Positions 7,921 to 58,421 of a DNA stretch of 58,421 bases are shown here, piece by piece (the first letter of the stretch is position 1; each line of letters opens with the position of its first letter). Below the pieces are notes generated by a model, which was not told where the DNA came from, made no database searches, and saw nothing but the letters and a program-made list of their open reading frames with translations. The DNA is from Clostridia bacterium (GTDB taxonomy: Bacteria > Bacillota > Clostridia > Christensenellales > UBA1242): positions 1 through 58,421 of the forward strand of contig JAZLKE010000018.1 in the NCBI GenBank assembly GCA_045597505.1. Reading direction: 5' to 3'. A program made the position numbers and the translations under genes.

Positions 7921-8660
7921 AATCCAAGATTGTCATTCTTAGTGGCTTAACCGCCAGCGGTAAAACTGCACTTTCCATTGAACTGGCTAAACAATTTAAT
8001 GCGGAAATTATTTCGGCTGACAGCCGTCAAGTCTACCAAGGTTTGGACGTCGGCTCCGCCAAAATTACCTCTGCCGAAATGCAAGGTATTCCCCACCATT
8101 GTTTGGACATTGTAAACCCCGCGCAAAACACCCGTTATTCGGTCGGTGATTTTCAACGCGACGCCTATCGCATAATTGATGAAATCATCGCCCGCGGTAA
8201 ATTGCCGCTTTTGGTTGGCGGTACTGGACTGTATACCCGCTCGGTCGCGGAAGGTTACGGCTTTGATAACCAACCAAACAATCCACATTACGATGTTTTA
8301 CAAATTTGTTTGATACCACCGAACACGCTTCTAGCACCCAAGGTCGACCAACGCAACCACGAACGCGTCGAACAACAAGGCATGTTTGACGAAACCCGCA
8401 ATCTGTTAAACAAAGGCGTACCAAGTGATTTTTTGTATAAACTAGGTTTGGAATACCGTTTGAATGTACGCTATCTGAACGGCGAAATTGATTTGCCGAC
8501 CTATTATTACGAACTATACCACCAAACCATGCAATTCATTAAACGCCAACGTACATGGTACCGCAAAGAAAACCCCGCGTATACACACTACCTAACCGAC
8601 CCCAAAACTTATCTATCTGACGTTACAAACTTAATAAACCAGTTTTTAACGACAAAATAA
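7917..8660 (+). CDS. miaA: tRNA dimethylallyltransferase
   Basis: Has the GLTASGKT P-loop, ISADSRQVYQGLDVGSAK and GGTGLY. ATGA overlap with the lepB stop. The protein is shorter than typical MiaA. Confidence 0.85.
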   Translation: MKSKIVILSGLTASGKTALSIELAKQFNAEIISADSRQVYQGLDVGSAKITSAEMQGIPHHCLDIVNPAQNTRYSVGDFQRDAYRIIDEIIARGKLPLLVGGTGLYTRSVAEGYGFDNQPNNPHYDVLQICLIPPNTLLAPKVDQRNHERVEQQGMFDETRNLLNKGVPSDFLYKLGLEYRLNVRYLNGEIDLPTYYYELYHQTMQFIKRQRTWYRKENPAYTHYLTDPKTYLSDVTNLINQFLTTK

Positions 8661-17344: not shown

Positions 17345-17418
17345 TGGCAGGGGTGGCAGGGTTCGAACCTACGATGAATGGGTCAGAGCCATTTGCCTTA
17401 CCGCTTGGCGACACCCCT
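17345..17418 (-). tRNA. tRNA-Gln (anticodon CTG), CCA encoded
   Basis: Hand-folded cloverleaf: acceptor AGGGGTG/CACCCCT, anticodon stem AATGG/CCATT, loop CTCTGAC, T-arm GTAGG-TTCGAAC-CCTGC. Confidence 0.9.
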
Positions 17419-54545: not shown

Positions 54546-54574
54546 TTTACAAAAGATAATAACTGTTGTATAAT
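54546..54574 (+). promoter_or_regulatory. Promoter of tRNA-Gln(TTG)
   Basis: TTTACA, a 17-nt spacer, then TATAAT, ending 15 nt before the tRNA 5' end. Confidence 0.5.
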
Positions 54575-54589
54575 CATAAATATTGCCAT

Positions 54590-54664
54590 AGGGGTGTCGC
54601 CAAGTGGTAAGGCAAGAGACTTTGACTCTCTCATTCGTAGGTTCGAATCCTGCTACCCCTTCCA
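54590..54664 (+). tRNA. tRNA-Gln (anticodon TTG), CCA encoded
   Basis: Hand-folded cloverleaf: acceptor AGGGGTG/TACCCCT, anticodon stem AGAGA/TCTCT, loop CTTTGAC, T-arm GTAGG-TTCGAAT-CCTGC. Confidence 0.9.
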
Positions 54665-54883
54665 AGCAATTCTGCATGCACAATAACCCTGTATTCGCCA
54701 GAGTTTTTAATGGTGAGTTGGCTATTGAACCAATTACGGACGATAATCGCCCACGGACGCAGAAAGAACTGCTGTGGCGATTATTTGTCGTCAAGTCGGT
54801 TATTCCTAAGTCCGAACTGATTAACATTAAGTTTATTAAAAAGTCGTGTAAGGTGTATCAAGATTTGAACCTACGAATGCGAG
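54662..54883 (+). repeat. Direct repeat, copy A (about 220 bp)
   Basis: Aligns with 57087-57305. By hand count, the first ~167 nt differ at 23 positions. It starts at the CCA of tRNA-Gln. Confidence 0.8.
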
Positions 54884-54906
54884 GGGCAGAACCAAACAAT
54901 GATTAA
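54676..54906 (+). CDS. Small ORF A (76 aa from the first ATG), paralog of ORF B; may be an N-terminally truncated copy
   Basis: Shares about 51 codons with ORF B. 12 of the 19 differing codons are synonymous in this frame. Confidence 0.4.
   Translation: MHNNPVFARVFNGELAIEPITDDNRPRTQKELLWRLFVVKSVIPKSELINIKFIKKSCKVYQDLNLRMRGAEPNND
54847..54883 (-). pseudogene. Decayed tRNA-Gln(TTG)-type 3' half (variable loop to ACA)
   Basis: The reverse complement CTCGCATTCGTAGGTTCAAATCTTGATACACCTTACA matches the last 37 nt of the tRNA at 54590-54664 at 31 of 37 positions (hand alignment). Confidence 0.55.
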
Positions 54907-54983
54907 TCTCGTGTAAAAATACATTTTTATAATCAGTTAATAGATTGAGTTTAATGTTTACAATTTAATTCTTTGTTAGCAAA

Positions 54984-55751
54984 TTAGTTTTCTTCTATAT
55001 CCAAGATTTGTAGGTCAATTAAAATTTCAATGAATTGACTAATACAATTGAATAGTCTTGTTTTGCTGTATTTTTTGGTTTGAAACTGAAATAATTTAAT
55101 ACCTATTGATTCTGTACTAATGAACACATCTTCATTCTCATCAATAAGCAAATTAGTTTTTAAGAAATTTAAGAACTCCTTCGCAGAGTGAATCAAATGT
55201 GATTCGGTTGCAACCTTAATGTTGTAATTTTTACTATCAAGTAGGTTTTTAGTATCTTTACCTAGCATTTGTTCATTATTATAGGAATTTGATTCAAACA
55301 GGCTTATAACATAGGATTCAATGCTTGGATAACTCAATAGCAATAAACCATTTTGCTCATCAGATGTTGTTTGGGACTGTTTTAATTTTTCAAGTAATTT
55401 TGATACTTCTGATTGCCTATTGTTAATGGGGTCTCTATCGAATAGAATATACACTGGGTTATTTATTAAATCTAAATCTAACTTAACTGCAATTTCACTG
55501 TGCATTTTGTCATAAAAATCATCTATGTTTTTGACATCTATTAAATTGCTTGTTGGAGCACTTACGACCTTGATAATTGAATTCTTATCATAACCATGTA
55601 ATTCACGAACAACTCCCTGATGTCGTGTTTGCTCTTTAATAGTATATCCTAGAATCTTATGGAAGATAGTCTCAACTATTTCTAATTCAGGGTGGTCGCC
55701 TTCTATAACAATTATAATTTCTCCGATGCGTTTTTCTTTTTTCAGTTTCAT
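54984..55751 (-). CDS. RloB/TOPRIM-like protein (AbiLii / AriB-like candidate nuclease)
   Basis: Has N-terminal IIIVIEGDHPE (TOPRIM-type Glu), the ILFDRD acidic motif, and LSYPSIESY resembling the RloB SNPxFE motif. 4-nt overlap with the upstream ATPase gene. Confidence 0.5.
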   Translation of the reverse strand: MKLKKEKRIGEIIIVIEGDHPELEIVETIFHKILGYTIKEQTRHQGVVRELHGYDKNSIIKVVSAPTSNLIDVKNIDDFYDKMHSEIAVKLDLDLINNPVYILFDRDPINNRQSEVSKLLEKLKQSQTTSDEQNGLLLLSYPSIESYVISLFESNSYNNEQMLGKDTKNLLDSKNYNIKVATESHLIHSAKEFLNFLKTNLLIDENEDVFISTESIGIKLFQFQTKKYSKTRLFNCISQFIEILIDLQILDIEEN

Positions 55752-56908
55752 GCTTTATAGTTTGGTATTGCTCCGAATTTTCCACTCAAATACATTTTTT
55801 CGAGATTTTGAGCTTCTCGAGGGTTTTCATCGGAGAATCTTTCAATAAATGAACCCTCATTTGGCTCAAAATCTATTGTATAAATTTGGTCAGGTCTTAA
55901 AATTCTAGAATTCAACAAGTTTGTTGAATGGGAATTAAAAATTAACTGGCTATTCTTACTATTCAGCATAAAGTATTTTACAATAACTTCTTCTAACTTG
56001 TTATGGAAACCACTACTAAATTCGTCAATCAATAATATTGAATGGGTCTTAGTCGCATAAATAATAGAAGGTAATATATTTATCAATGTTTGATTTCCAA
56101 GAGATTCCATCTCTAATGGTAAATTTAAATCCATATCATGTCTTTTTAAGAATATAATAGGCTTGTCTACTTTTAAACCTACGTACAGTGTTCCATTTTT
56201 TTCTTTAACTTTACTAACCAAGTTGTCTTTACTTTTTGATACAAAAAAATCAAAATTTATGTGTTTTAATGTGCTATTAATTTCCTGTATGCTTTTTTCA
56301 TCAAGTTTTTGAATCAGGTGAGAAATATTATTGTAAGAAATCGCTGTTCTTTCAAACGCATTTACATAAACAGAATTTCTTAAAAATTCCATAAATTTAA
56401 TAATTTGTTTATTCTGAGCAAACACATCATTAAAATAACATTTTTTTAATAATAGAACCTTTTCAGTGAATTTTCCATCATAGTCTACACATTTATTTTC
56501 AATCAATATCTTTCCACTACGCAAATGCCTATCTACAAATGGTGTGTCATTTATAATAAGTTGTTCTAGGACAATATCACCATTTTTATCTGATTCGAAT
56601 AAATAGGATATTTTATCCTTTGAAAACTTAAATTGATACTCTAAATGGATGTTTGCCTTTTTATCAAACAAACACCTATCAGAAAAATCCATTTGATAGT
56701 TGTCTTTAAACAGCATATCAAGAAGAGTTTTTATGGCTAAAATAAGAGTTGATTTTCCTGTAGCGTTTGGACCGACAATTAGTCCGCCTTTTAAAACTCC
56801 GTCAAAAGTGTTTGTGTCTTGTAATGATTGATACTTTGTAACTTCTAAATTGAATTCCCTTCGGTTTTTGAATGATTTGTAATTTTCTACAACAACTTTA
56901 GATAGCAT
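55748..56908 (-). CDS. ABC-type AAA ATPase (AAA_21/AAA_15-like; AbiLi / AriA-like)
   Basis: Has Walker A GPNATGKS, Walker B LLIDEF, the downstream FNSHS H-loop-like motif, and the N-terminal VENYKSF typical of SMC/ABC-like defence ATPases. Confidence 0.7.
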   Translation of the reverse strand: MLSKVVVENYKSFKNRREFNLEVTKYQSLQDTNTFDGVLKGGLIVGPNATGKSTLILAIKTLLDMLFKDNYQMDFSDRCLFDKKANIHLEYQFKFSKDKISYLFESDKNGDIVLEQLIINDTPFVDRHLRSGKILIENKCVDYDGKFTEKVLLLKKCYFNDVFAQNKQIIKFMEFLRNSVYVNAFERTAISYNNISHLIQKLDEKSIQEINSTLKHINFDFFVSKSKDNLVSKVKEKNGTLYVGLKVDKPIIFLKRHDMDLNLPLEMESLGNQTLINILPSIIYATKTHSILLIDEFSSGFHNKLEEVIVKYFMLNSKNSQLIFNSHSTNLLNSRILRPDQIYTIDFEPNEGSFIERFSDENPREAQNLEKMYLSGKFGAIPNYKA

Positions 56909-56967
56909 AATTCACCCCTATATATTTATGTACAAATGTAAAAATAATACACAAAGCCCGCGATGTA

Positions 56968-56986
56968 AGTGTAAAAAATTTACACT
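56968..56986. promoter_or_regulatory. Palindrome in the divergent promoter region between the ATPase gene and small ORF B
   Basis: AGTGTAAA-AAA-TTTACACT. Confidence 0.3.
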
Positions 56987-57025
56987 ATATTTTTATCATA
57001 TAGCCATAGCGCTTGTCAAGTATCA

Positions 57026-57292
57026 ATGCCTAAAAATTTATACAAATATGAAGGATTCAAAAATTATTTTTTCAATATAATTAAAGCCAAGCAATTCTGC
57101 ACACACAATAACCCTGTATTCGCCAGAGTTTTGAATGGTGAGTTGGCTATTGAACCAATCACGTCAGATAACTGCCCGCGTTCACAACAAGAACTGCTGT
57201 GGCGATTATTTGTGGTGAAATCCGTTATCCATAAATCCGAACTGATTAACATAAATTCATCAAGAAATCTTGTCAGGCGTACCAGGCTTTGA
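57026..57292 (+). CDS. Small ORF B (88 aa), paralog of ORF A
   Basis: Has an ATG start. The conserved core is HNNPVFARVLNGELAIEPIT...ELLWRLFVVKSVI.KSELINI. The stop codon lies inside the antisense tRNA-half remnant. Confidence 0.45.
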   Translation: MPKNLYKYEGFKNYFFNIIKAKQFCTHNNPVFARVLNGELAIEPITSDNCPRSQQELLWRLFVVKSVIHKSELININSSRNLVRRTRL

Positions 57293-57305
57293 ACCTACGA
57301 TGAAT
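57087..57305 (+). repeat. Direct repeat, copy B (about 220 bp)
   Basis: Aligns with 54662-54883. Confidence 0.8.
57271..57305 (-). pseudogene. Decayed tRNA-Gln(CTG)-type 3' half
   Basis: The reverse complement ATTCATCGTAGGTTCAAAGCCTGGTACGCCTGACA matches the last 35 nt of the tRNA at 17345-17418 at 29 of 35 positions (hand alignment). Confidence 0.55.
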
Positions 57306-57309
57306 TATG

Positions 57310-58158
57310 CTAACTATTATCCTTAGATTTTTCTTTTATGCAATATTGACAAACTCGCAACAATAATTCAATTGGACCAAATAACGTAGAAATTGTGCAC
57401 AAAATCAAATATAACATTTGATTGACTATAGACAAAGAATTCCAAGCATGAACCAAGTAACAAATTAGATAAAATGACATACAAAGCGACATCATCAACA
57501 TATTAAAGAGTGTGCTGTTTTCAATAATTGAATTTTTATATTGTTTTATTTCTTTATATGGAATAAATTTATTGACATAACTTTTATCAAGATTTTTATC
57601 TTTAACAACTTTTATCATCAATTCATCTAAATCTGATTTGTTTTTTGTGCCAAGACCATTAGCATAAATTTGCTCAATAATATAATCAATGCTGTTCTTA
57701 TATTTATTGTTAATTAATTTATAATTATGTTTTTCGCAGCCAATATGGATAGAAATTCCTTTTTCATCAGTAGTTTTTAAAACCCAAAAGTCTTTCTTCT
57801 CACACCTAACTGAACCGTAATATTTAAATAATTTATTAAACATAATGTTTGATTCAGCATAACTTTGTAATTTAATTAGAAATAATTTATTCTTTCGATT
57901 AATAATGAATGTATCATATAAATATTTCACAAATGGATAAAATCCTAAGTAAGTTAATATTAAGTGAAAATGAATATTCGGAGTTATAAAACACCCCAAA
58001 ATTCCAGTAGATTCCACTAGCAGTGAACCAATAAAATCACAAACTGGTTTTATTTTGCTTTTGTATTTATAGCAAAATCCAAGTTCGTACATGCAACAAA
58101 TTTCCATAAGCATATCCAACAGAAACAACAATAATAAAATTATATATACAATATCCAT
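57310..58158 (-). CDS. Hypothetical membrane protein (282 aa), very AT-rich
   Basis: Long ORF with N- and C-terminal hydrophobic helices flanking a Lys/Asn-rich soluble middle. Confidence 0.45.
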   Translation of the reverse strand: MDIVYIILLLLFLLDMLMEICCMYELGFCYKYKSKIKPVCDFIGSLLVESTGILGCFITPNIHFHLILTYLGFYPFVKYLYDTFIINRKNKLFLIKLQSYAESNIMFNKLFKYYGSVRCEKKDFWVLKTTDEKGISIHIGCEKHNYKLINNKYKNSIDYIIEQIYANGLGTKNKSDLDELMIKVVKDKNLDKSYVNKFIPYKEIKQYKNSIIENSTLFNMLMMSLCMSFYLICYLVHAWNSLSIVNQMLYLILCTISTLFGPIELLLRVCQYCIKEKSKDNS

Positions 58159-58249
58159 TAAAAAATTATAATGTAATTAATTACAAAATGGAATATGTCA
58201 TATTTATATTGTGTGTGGATAATTTTGTGATATATTGCTTTATAATTTT

Positions 58250-58421
58250 ATGGATAAAAACATTAACTATACTGAGAAAAAAAACATTGAACTAGTCAAA
58301 AATGAGCCTTTAAAGAGGCTTTCTAAAAAGAGGTATTATATTACGCCTATAATTAGTTTTGTGCTGATGATAGTACTTTCTTTATTTATTTACCATAATG
58401 ATTCTCAATTAATTGTTGATT
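58250..58421 (+). CDS. Hypothetical protein, N-terminal fragment (continues beyond window)
   Basis: The frame is open from the ATG at 58250 to the window end. It contains a hydrophobic helix. Too short for the ORF track. Confidence 0.3.
   Translation, partial: MDKNINYTEKKNIELVKNEPLKRLSKKRYYITPIISFVLMIVLSLFIYHNDSQLIVD

What the first reader, a model, noticed from the sequence alone, without database searches (positions are those of the whole stretch)
54662..57305. About 220-bp diverged direct repeats bracket the ATPase/TOPRIM cassette and begin at the CCA end of tRNA-Gln(TTG)
Copy A (54662-54883) and copy B (57087-57305) align end to end. By my hand count they differ at 23 positions over the first ~167 nt. 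A short divergent stretch follows, and then homologous tRNA-like ends.

Homology starts at CCAAGCAATTCTGCA, which is the terminal CCA of the intact tRNA. The repeats are too long and too diverged to be a simple att duplication from one integration event.

They look like homologous ends of two related elements stacked in tandem, or a module duplicated with its cargo. Recombination between them would delete or mobilise the defence cassette.
Basis: seen in the sequence. Interest (0 to 1): 0.65.

Follow-up and report, generated by a model that had tools for sequence, protein, structure and literature searches.

The report
Split serine-integrase gene ends, stacked at tRNA-Gln
The two ~220-bp repeats are the detached last ~65 codons of a large serine integrase gene that straddles its own attachment site and is cut in two on insertion just after a tRNA gene; two such stubs from related mobile elements are stacked here around a phage-defence cassette.

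Summary
Copy A (54662-54888) and copy B (57087-57305) are direct repeats about 85% identical. Both begin at the CCA of tRNA-Gln(TTG), and there are no other copies in the genome.

They are not non-coding att repeats. They are protein-coding on the + strand: dN/dS is 0.05-0.26 among seven copies, and homology ends at a conserved stop codon. There is no conserved start codon.

Related copies abut tRNA-Gln, -Ile, -Met and -His, and the left end of an element next to tRNA-Glu. In five independent elements a large serine recombinase (LSR) gene at the far end runs into a short repeat of the att core in the same reading frame. One genome carries the LSR C-terminal half and this module as a single continuous ORF.

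The repeat is therefore the C-terminal segment, "Int(C)", of an LSR gene that spans attP and is split by integration. This resembles archaeal SSV-type integrases, but here in a serine recombinase of gut Clostridia.

Single-copy alleles and empty sites exist in relatives. Relative to the single-copy allele, the window has [A + AbiL-like cassette] inserted between the tRNA and B. B is a mosaic of an A-like 5' part and a relative-like 3' part.

No LSR, excision circle or A/B deletion junction was seen for this locus.

The parts
54546..54574 (+). Promoter-like site for tRNA-Gln (TTTACA-17-TATAAT). No terminator lies between the tRNA and copy A.
54590..54664 (+). tRNA-Gln(TTG). It acts as the attB B-arm, and the crossover lies at or just after its encoded CCA (54662-54664). 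Its discriminator base is T, whereas it is G in all relatives.
54665..54876 (+). Copy A, Int(C): the last ~70 codons of a split large-serine-recombinase gene (...KQFCMHNNPVFARVFNGELAIEPI...ELLWRLFVVKSVIPKSELINIKFIKKSCKVYQDLNLR). The family's stop codon is lost here, so the frame runs on to 54906.
54847..54888 (-). Inverted, decayed 3' half of tRNA-Gln of the TTG type (34/42 complementary to 54623-54664). It overlaps the last 10 codons of copy A.
54979..57083 (-). AbiL-like defence module. Contigs from other metagenomes enter and leave the window exactly at these two points, so the module also occurs in other contexts.
   Evidence: loose ends X1 at 54979, X3 at 57083
54984..55751 (-). 255-aa RloB/TOPRIM-like protein. 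The AbiLii match is weak.
55748..56908 (-). 386-aa AAA_21 ATPase. AbiLi E=1.3e-50, AriA E=1.4e-18.
56909..57086 (.). AT-rich spacer upstream of the ATPase. It ends in ...TTAAAG-CCA. No recombinase tail (P arm) is left beyond GCCA.
57087..57303 (+). Copy B, Int(C), a mosaic. The first ~75 nt are 95% identical to A, and the last ~150 nt are 95-97% identical to copies in G123 and L065. A 1-nt deletion after 57251 breaks the frame in this MAG only. The conserved stop is at 57301-57303.
57269..57305 (-). Inverted, decayed tRNA-Gln 3' half of the CTG type.
57310..58158 (-). 282-aa membrane ORF, the first cargo gene of the B element. It is 96% identical to the gene that follows the single Int(C) copy in L061.
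58235..58421 (+). Start of the conserved 225-234-aa membrane protein of the same element, cut by the contig end.

Best explanation
Each repeat is an 'Int(C)' stub: the 3' ~200 nt (about 65-70 codons) of a large serine recombinase (LSR) gene.

Mechanism. In this clade of integrative elements from small-genome gut Clostridia (Candidatus Fimenecus and relatives), attP lies inside a C-terminal extension of the LSR reading frame. The crossover is at or just after the CCA end of a tRNA gene. Integration therefore leaves the tail of the gene next to the tRNA (attL = tRNA + Int(C)). The body of the gene, with the Resolvase, Recombinase and Zn-ribbon/coiled-coil domains, lies several kb to about 12 kb away (about 5 kb in G207, 12 kb in G123) and reads into attR. 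Only the excised circle encodes the full-length protein.

This window. Two such stubs from different lineages are stacked. B with the 282-aa gene and onward is the start of a ~12-kb element also seen as a single copy in relatives. A plus the AbiL-like ATPase/TOPRIM cassette lies between the tRNA and B. I read it as the remnant of a second element whose recombinase body has been lost.

Shown: the coding nature of the repeat, its continuity with the LSR, the in-frame att cores, the element boundaries with matching empty sites, the single-copy alleles, and the mosaicism of B.

Inferred: translation of the fused form, any function of the tail, and the order of events that stacked A and B.
For: Coding signature. 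Seven Gln-type copies show dN/dS of 0.05-0.26 in + frame 0 with no stops. Other frames have stops or dN/dS of 1 or more. Homology ends at a shared stop codon.

No conserved start codon.

Distant homologues. Copies at 25-39% amino-acid identity lie directly 3' of tRNA-Ile, -Met and -His, and the same elements carry an LSR at the far end.

In-frame att-core repeats between the tRNA end and the LSR 3' end, in five elements:
- Ile, 15 nt.
- Met, GCCACCA, in the window's own genome on contigs C29/C31.
- Gln, CTGCCAA, in G123.
- His, CGTCCCAAAA, and Glu, 16 nt.

Continuity. G093:C96 has one continuous ORF from the LSR Zn-ribbon/coiled-coil region into the Int(C) domain. It is colinear with the three reconstructed fusions.

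Domains. The G123 LSR has Resolvase + Recombinase + Zn_ribbon_recom and matches the A118 integrase structure only up to about residue 470.

Boundaries. The G123 attR flank equals the empty-site flank of G050. In other metagenomes, contigs with this LSR break at the same GCCA into tRNA-Gln TTG-type or CTG-type empty-site flanks.

Single-copy alleles occur in L061, L062 and L065.

Mosaic B.
Against: - No full-length fused LSR was found among 1.84 billion representative proteins, in the viral or JGI metagenome scans, or in 400 further genomes of the order.
- The only continuous ORF, in G093, lacks its own N-terminal half.
- No attP (circle) junction was seen. Only low-depth Logan contigs were available.
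- The window and its assembly hold no Gln-type LSR. This locus may therefore be immobile.
- The left edge of B keeps only GCCA of the expected recombinase tail, so the A element's right end is not a clean attR.
- All sequences come from MAGs or metagenomes.
Confidence: 0.8

Rival explanations
1. Int(C) is an autonomous small gene, for example a directionality factor or regulator. It sits at the tRNA-proximal end of the element and only happens to be in frame with the recombinase.
For: Gene callers in public data call it as 47-127-aa ORFs. Copy A has an ATG at 54677. Purifying selection would fit any coding gene.
Against: There is no conserved start codon or ribosome-binding site. In several copies the only upstream frame runs through the tRNA. 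Five of five att cores are in frame. G093 has it continuous with the recombinase.
Confidence: 0.1
2. The two copies arose by local segmental duplication of one repeat together with its cargo.
For: They are direct repeats in the same orientation 2.4 kb apart. Their first ~75 nt are 95% identical.
Against: dS between A and B is about 0.56. The 3' 150 nt of B are 95-97% identical to copies in other genomes but only about 80% identical to A. The gene after B is 96% identical to the gene after the single copy in L061. The AbiLi gene is absent from 200 other genomes of the family.
Confidence: 0.04
3. The repeats are non-coding: integrase arm-binding sites or a structured RNA downstream of the tRNA.
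For: A read-through transcript would fold the tRNA 3' half onto the inverted fragment (minimum free energy -97 kcal/mol, z = -4.4).
Against: There is no Rfam match. Substitutions are concentrated at third codon positions in one frame. Amino-acid similarity persists where DNA similarity is gone.
Confidence: 0.04
4. The two-copy arrangement is an assembly or binning artefact.
For: The genome is a fragmented MAG, and the contig ends 1.1 kb after B.
Against: Both junctions are spanned by contigs from independent samples. The protein P0002 comes from another sample's 1494-nt contig that carries the same spacer-B junction.
Confidence: 0.02

Closest known systems
SSV-type 'suicidal' integrases of archaeal viruses and plasmids (SSV1, pTN3, pT26-2)
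   Same: The att site lies inside the integrase reading frame. Integration at a tRNA gene splits the gene into Int(N) and Int(C). The N and C parts of different origin can be recombined: hybrid genes in Badel et al. 2020 (PMC7253208), and here the mosaic B and stacked copies.
   Different: Those are tyrosine recombinases of hyperthermophilic archaea. The split lies near the 5' end and inactivates the enzyme, and they are described as exclusive to Archaea (PMC8371274). Here the enzyme is a large serine recombinase of gut Clostridia. The split removes only a ~65-aa tail downstream of all canonical domains, and the shared core is only about 7-16 nt.
Large serine recombinase (phiC31, Bxb1, A118, TP901-1 type) integrative elements
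   Same: The G123 recombinase has Resolvase + Recombinase + Zn-ribbon domains. The common core is short, and the recombinase gene sits at one end of the element next to the att site.
   Different: Characterised LSRs have attP outside the gene and target protein-coding genes or intergenic sites. [quoted passage not shown] In this clade attP lies inside the ORF, and the targets are the 3' ends of tRNA-Gln, Ile, Met, His and Glu.
Integration-dependent immunity of mycobacteriophages (BPs, Brujita; Broussard et al. 2013)
   Same: attP lies inside a coding gene at a tRNA attB. The excised and integrated states therefore encode proteins with different C-termini, which acts as a switch coupled to genotype (PMC9262239).
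   Different: There the split gene is the repressor, the integrase is a tyrosine recombinase, and the removed tail is an ssrA-like degradation tag. Here the split gene is the recombinase itself, and the tail is a conserved ~60-aa module of unknown function.
Tandem genomic islands at tRNA genes
   Same: Successive elements pile up at one tRNA. The older one is pushed outward, and defence genes are carried as cargo.
   Different: Classical arrays are separated by direct repeats of the tRNA 3' end. Here the repeated unit is a coding stub. Only CCA is shared with the tRNA, and the tRNA-like piece is inverted.

Membership tests
Large serine recombinase integrative element | Recombinase with Resolvase + Recombinase + zinc-ribbon domains encoded in the element | tested here: not met
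   No such gene lies in the window, and no Gln-type LSR is in the assembly. The feature is met in the homologous element of G123 and in the Ile, Met, His and Glu elements. The window therefore holds only ends or remnants of such elements.
Large serine recombinase integrative element | Defined attL/attR with a short common core, and a matching empty site in relatives | tested here: met
   G123 attL/attR share the core CTGCCAA. The attR flank equals the empty-site flank of G050. Contigs from other metagenomes break at the same GCCA.
Large serine recombinase integrative element | Repeats A and B are homologous to the attL-side end of those elements | tested here: met
   75-92% nucleotide and 70-90% amino-acid identity to the copies in G092, G123, G148, L061 and L065.
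Self-splitting (SSV-type) integrase | The att core lies inside the integrase ORF, so integration partitions the gene | tested here: met
   In-frame core repeats in five elements, plus a continuous ORF in G093.
Self-splitting (SSV-type) integrase | Tyrosine recombinase of the SSV family in an archaeal host | tested here: not met
   The enzyme has serine recombinase domains. The hosts are Clostridia MAGs.
Self-splitting (SSV-type) integrase | The split inactivates the enzyme | not testable with these tools
   The truncated form keeps every domain seen in solved LSR structures. Activity is unknown.
AbiL / PARIS-like two-gene defence system (the cargo) | ABC-type ATPase (AbiLi/AriA) followed by a TOPRIM/RloB partner | tested here: inconclusive
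   The ATPase matches AbiLi at 1.3e-50 and AriA at 1.4e-18. The partner matches only weakly: AbiLii 0.009, RloB 0.07.
Classical tRNA-island att direct repeats | The repeat is a direct copy of the tRNA 3' segment | tested here: not met
   Only CCA is shared in direct orientation. The tRNA-like 3' half inside each repeat is inverted.

The most novel reading that the evidence does not exclude
The split is a directionality or activity switch coupled to genotype. Only the excised circle encodes the full-length recombinase, body plus the conserved ~65-aa tail. The integrated element encodes a tail-less form with a flank-derived C-terminus. The two forms would differ in activity or direction (integration-proficient versus locked or excision-prone), so control would be built into the DNA state rather than into a separate directionality factor. 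Stacking would also fuse an incoming recombinase body to a resident tail and generate hybrid enzymes, as proposed for archaeal suicidal integrases.
Probability: 0.3. Interest if true: 0.85.

Novelty: new variant of a known kind. Interest (0 to 1): 0.68.

Why it matters
- Integrases that carry their attachment site inside their own gene are described in the literature I could search as an exclusively archaeal, tyrosine-recombinase feature. Here the same logic appears in bacterial large serine recombinases, the enzyme class used for genome engineering.
- This clade also targets tRNA 3' ends, which characterised serine integrases are reported not to do.
- If the tail changes activity or direction, it would be a compact, factor-free way to make recombination depend on integration state.
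- For annotation, it explains a recurrent family of "orphan" 50-130-aa ORFs next to tRNAs in gut Clostridia. It also gives a sequence marker for tRNA-linked defence-island hot spots.

Tried and rejected
- **Rfam** on the region found only the tRNA.
- **Pfam** on both strands of the repeat ORFs found nothing.
- **Host guess.** From the genome size I first took the host to be a CPR/Saccharibacteria bacterium. This was wrong: the relatives are Clostridia MAGs.
- **Antisense ORFs in the repeat** were rejected. They mirror the third-position pattern but acquire stops in relatives.
- **Searches for a full-length fused recombinase** all failed to find one:
  - a profile search of 1.84 billion proteins;
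  - the IMG/VR viral scan and the JGI metagenome scan;
  - 400 genomes of the order.
- **AlphaFold2 of the 66-aa tail** gave pLDDT 66, a beta hairpin plus a helix. This was too poor for a fold search.
- **PDB sequence search with the G093 ORF** found nothing.
- **Read laying** used only low-depth Logan contigs and showed no circle junction or A/B deletion junction.
- **The rest of the B element** (Rep, HTH, LSR) is not in this assembly.
- **The 537-aa LSR on contig C26** lies next to a type I restriction-modification system with no tRNA. I set it aside as unrelated.
Full report
**1. Observation**

Copy A (54662-54888) and copy B (57087-57305) are direct repeats. They are 86% identical over the first 169 nt. 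A 1-nt deletion in B follows, and then 78% identity over 49 nt. Homology starts at the CCA that ends tRNA-Gln(TTG) at 54590-54664. The 835-kb assembly holds no other copy. The window is the whole contig, so it cannot be extended to the right.

The "tRNA-like ends" exist but are inverted. 54847-54888 is 81% complementary to the tRNA's own 3' half, and 57269-57300 likewise.

Contigs from independent gut metagenomes span both junctions, so the arrangement is not an artefact.

**2. The repeat is coding**

Five genus-level copies were aligned first, then seven. Their differences fall on third codon positions of one + strand frame. Homology stops at a shared stop codon...LNLR*.

Nei-Gojobori dN/dS is 0.05-0.26 for all 20 pairs where dS could be estimated (dS was saturated in one pair), and none of the seven copies has a stop in that frame. 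The other frames give dN/dS of 1 or more, or contain stops. The antisense frame that shares third positions acquires stops in relatives.

There is no conserved start codon. In several copies the only upstream frame runs back through the tRNA. Rfam and Pfam find nothing.

**3. What it is part of**

Six-frame searches found distant homologues (25-39% amino-acid identity). These also lie directly 3' of tRNA genes:
- tRNA-Ile in G148 and G207;
- tRNA-Met in the window's own genome (contig C29), G263 and G033, with the G384 copy about 150 nt from its tRNA-Met;
- tRNA-His in G148 and G210.

In these elements a large serine recombinase (LSR) gene sits at the far end on the same strand. A short repeat of the tRNA end lies inside the 3' end of the LSR gene, in the same reading frame as the small ORF:

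| Element | Core repeat | Reading across the core |
|---|---|---|
| G207, tRNA-Ile | 15 nt CAACCAATACAAATT | ...QPIQI followed by KLTISD* when integrated, by SPITSKQPCFARLL... in the circle |
| Own genome C31/C29, tRNA-Met | GCCACCA | - |
| G123, tRNA-Gln | CTGCCAA | - |
| G148:C10, tRNA-His | CGTCCCAAAA | VPK |
| G194, tRNA-Glu, opposite orientation | 16 nt | GSPEG |

Five of five in frame has a chance expectation of about 0.4%.

In G093:C96 a single 323-aa open frame runs from the LSR zinc-ribbon and coiled-coil region straight into the module. It aligns colinearly with the three reconstructed fusions.

The G123 enzyme has Resolvase, Recombinase and Zn_ribbon_recom domains. It matches the A118 integrase structure only up to about residue 470. 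The att core therefore lies in a C-terminal extension beyond all canonical domains.

**4. Boundaries**

Right of the G123 attR, the sequence is homologous to the flank that follows an unoccupied tRNA-Gln in G050. In other metagenomes, contigs carrying this LSR leave the reference exactly at GCCA. They continue into the TTG-type flank (X22, X1) or the CTG-type flank (X23). The crossover is therefore at or just after the tRNA's CCA.

The G123 element is about 12 kb. It carries:
- an AAA_14/DUF4143 ATPase;
- a rolling-circle Rep;
- an HTH regulator;
- an EcoRI-like methylase with an HNH nuclease;
- the LSR.

**5. This window**

Single-copy alleles exist:
- L061 and L062: tRNA-Gln(CTG) - Int(C) - 282-aa gene - 225-aa gene - Rep - HTH.
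- L065 and G123: tRNA-Gln - Int(C) - AAA_14 ATPase - 234-aa gene.

The window's 282-aa gene is 96% identical to that of L061. B and everything to its right are thus the start of such an element. The contig ends inside it, and the rest, including any LSR, is not in the assembly.

Relative to the single-copy allele, the segment from A through the ATPase/TOPRIM pair to the 178-bp spacer lies between the tRNA and B. The ATPase matches AbiLi at 1.3e-50, and the partner matches only weakly. The cassette is absent from 200 other genomes of the family. Contigs from other metagenomes enter at 54979 and leave at 57083, so the defence module also occurs in other contexts.

A and B are old relatives (dS 0.56). 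B is a mosaic. Its first ~75 nt are 95% identical to A. Its last ~150 nt are 95-97% identical to G123 and L065 but about 80% identical to A. This shows recombination or gene conversion among copies.

Both copies are slightly damaged here:
- A lacks the family's stop codon.
- B has a 1-nt deletion after 57251. Strains in X1 and X2 do not share it.

Left of B only GCCA resembles the recombinase tail seen in G123 and G148. The A element has therefore lost its recombinase body. Alternatively it was never autonomous.

I found no circle junction or A/B deletion junction.

**6. How it most likely works**

Shown: the repeat is the tail of an LSR gene that spans attP, and integration next to a tRNA detaches it.

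Inferred: the full-length protein is made only from the excised form, and the tail-less form only from the integrated state. Purifying selection on the tail says it matters. The tail could be needed for integration, could block excision, or could control protein stability. None of this is tested. AlphaFold2 gave only a low-confidence hairpin plus helix.

The stacking is best read as successive arrivals at one tRNA followed by decay and gene conversion. The exact order of events is uncertain.

**7. Comparison and novelty**

The closest concept is the SSV-type "suicidal" integrase. Reviews describe it as exclusive to Archaea and to tyrosine recombinases (PMC8371274, PMC7253208). A second analogue is integration-dependent immunity in mycobacteriophages, where attP lies in the repressor gene (PMC9262239). 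The same review notes that mycobacteriophage serine integrases do not use tRNA genes.

Four literature searches, a term search of the Durrant et al. LSR-survey preprint and three further papers found no description of a serine recombinase with attP inside its own ORF. I rate this a new variant of a known kind.

Caveats:
- All data come from MAGs or metagenomes.
- No fused full-length gene was found in very large protein and contig collections.
- The module is largely confined to one family: 21 of 401 genomes there, and 2 of about 380 genomes sampled elsewhere in the order.

Noticed in passing
window 54847-54888 and 57269-57305; L086/L091: The last ~10 codons of Int(C) (CKVYQDLNLR) and the bases after the stop are antisense tRNA-Gln 3' half. 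A follows the TTG isoacceptor (CGAATG), which is why it lacks the TGA stop. B, G148, G092 and L061 follow the CTG type (CGATGAAT). The tRNA-His-linked homologue also keeps AAAGGGGTAGCAAGAT, 14/15 identical to the antisense tRNA-Gln acceptor stem, so the feature looks ancestral to the family. Its origin and role are unexplained. A read-through transcript from the tRNA would pair the two halves (z = -4.4).
   Followed up: partly
L041 5127-6713 (G148:C5 73127-74712): A second, 507-aa serine recombinase family sits next to tRNA-Gln(TTG) on the opposite strand. Its last codons (...AWQG*) are antisense to the tRNA acceptor end, so its ORF also crosses the att site. The same 38 nt (CCAAGCATGTTTATTC...) follow both tRNA-Gln genes in that genome.
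   Followed up: no
L094 6730-8493 (G194:C39): A 587-aa recombinase of the Int(C) clade reads antisense through an entire tRNA-Glu(TTC) gene (8403-8477). The clade therefore uses tRNA 3' ends in either orientation.
   Followed up: partly
window 54661 and 57086: The discriminator base of tRNA-Gln(TTG) is T here but G in every relative and in the window's tRNA-Gln(CTG). A G precedes the CCA at the left edge of B. This may mark the crossover position or be a private mutation.
   Followed up: no
window 17345-17418 and 54590-54664: The two tRNA-Gln genes are divergent neighbours 140-714 bp apart in all relatives but 37 kb apart here, with core genes (dnaN, serS, mfd, pth, rplJL) between them. This looks like a large rearrangement with end points at the two attB-bearing tRNAs. 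In G123 the element's attL is at tRNA-Gln(CTG), while its attR flank is the TTG-type flank.
   Followed up: no
own genome C29:31527-32847 and C31:18063-19912: A tRNA-Met-linked element of the same clade is split across two contig ends of this assembly. Int(C) plus a 147-aa gene lie on C29, and the 615-aa recombinase on C31 reads 57 further codons into the host flank.
   Followed up: partly
L040 5641-7459 (G148:C5): This is another two-copy locus. A full Int(C) and a diverged 66-nt N-terminal fragment bracket a 379-aa gene. RecQ-like genes and the AAA_14 ATPase follow. The slot just after Int(C) is therefore a recurrent cargo hot spot.
   Followed up: no
L063 3216 in run X2: One metagenome contig joins the G123-type recombinase tail at GCCA to an unrelated sequence (AAAGTAAGTGAAATTTGTC...). 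It is neither a tRNA-Gln flank nor Int(C), so it may be an alternative target or a further stacked element.
   Followed up: no
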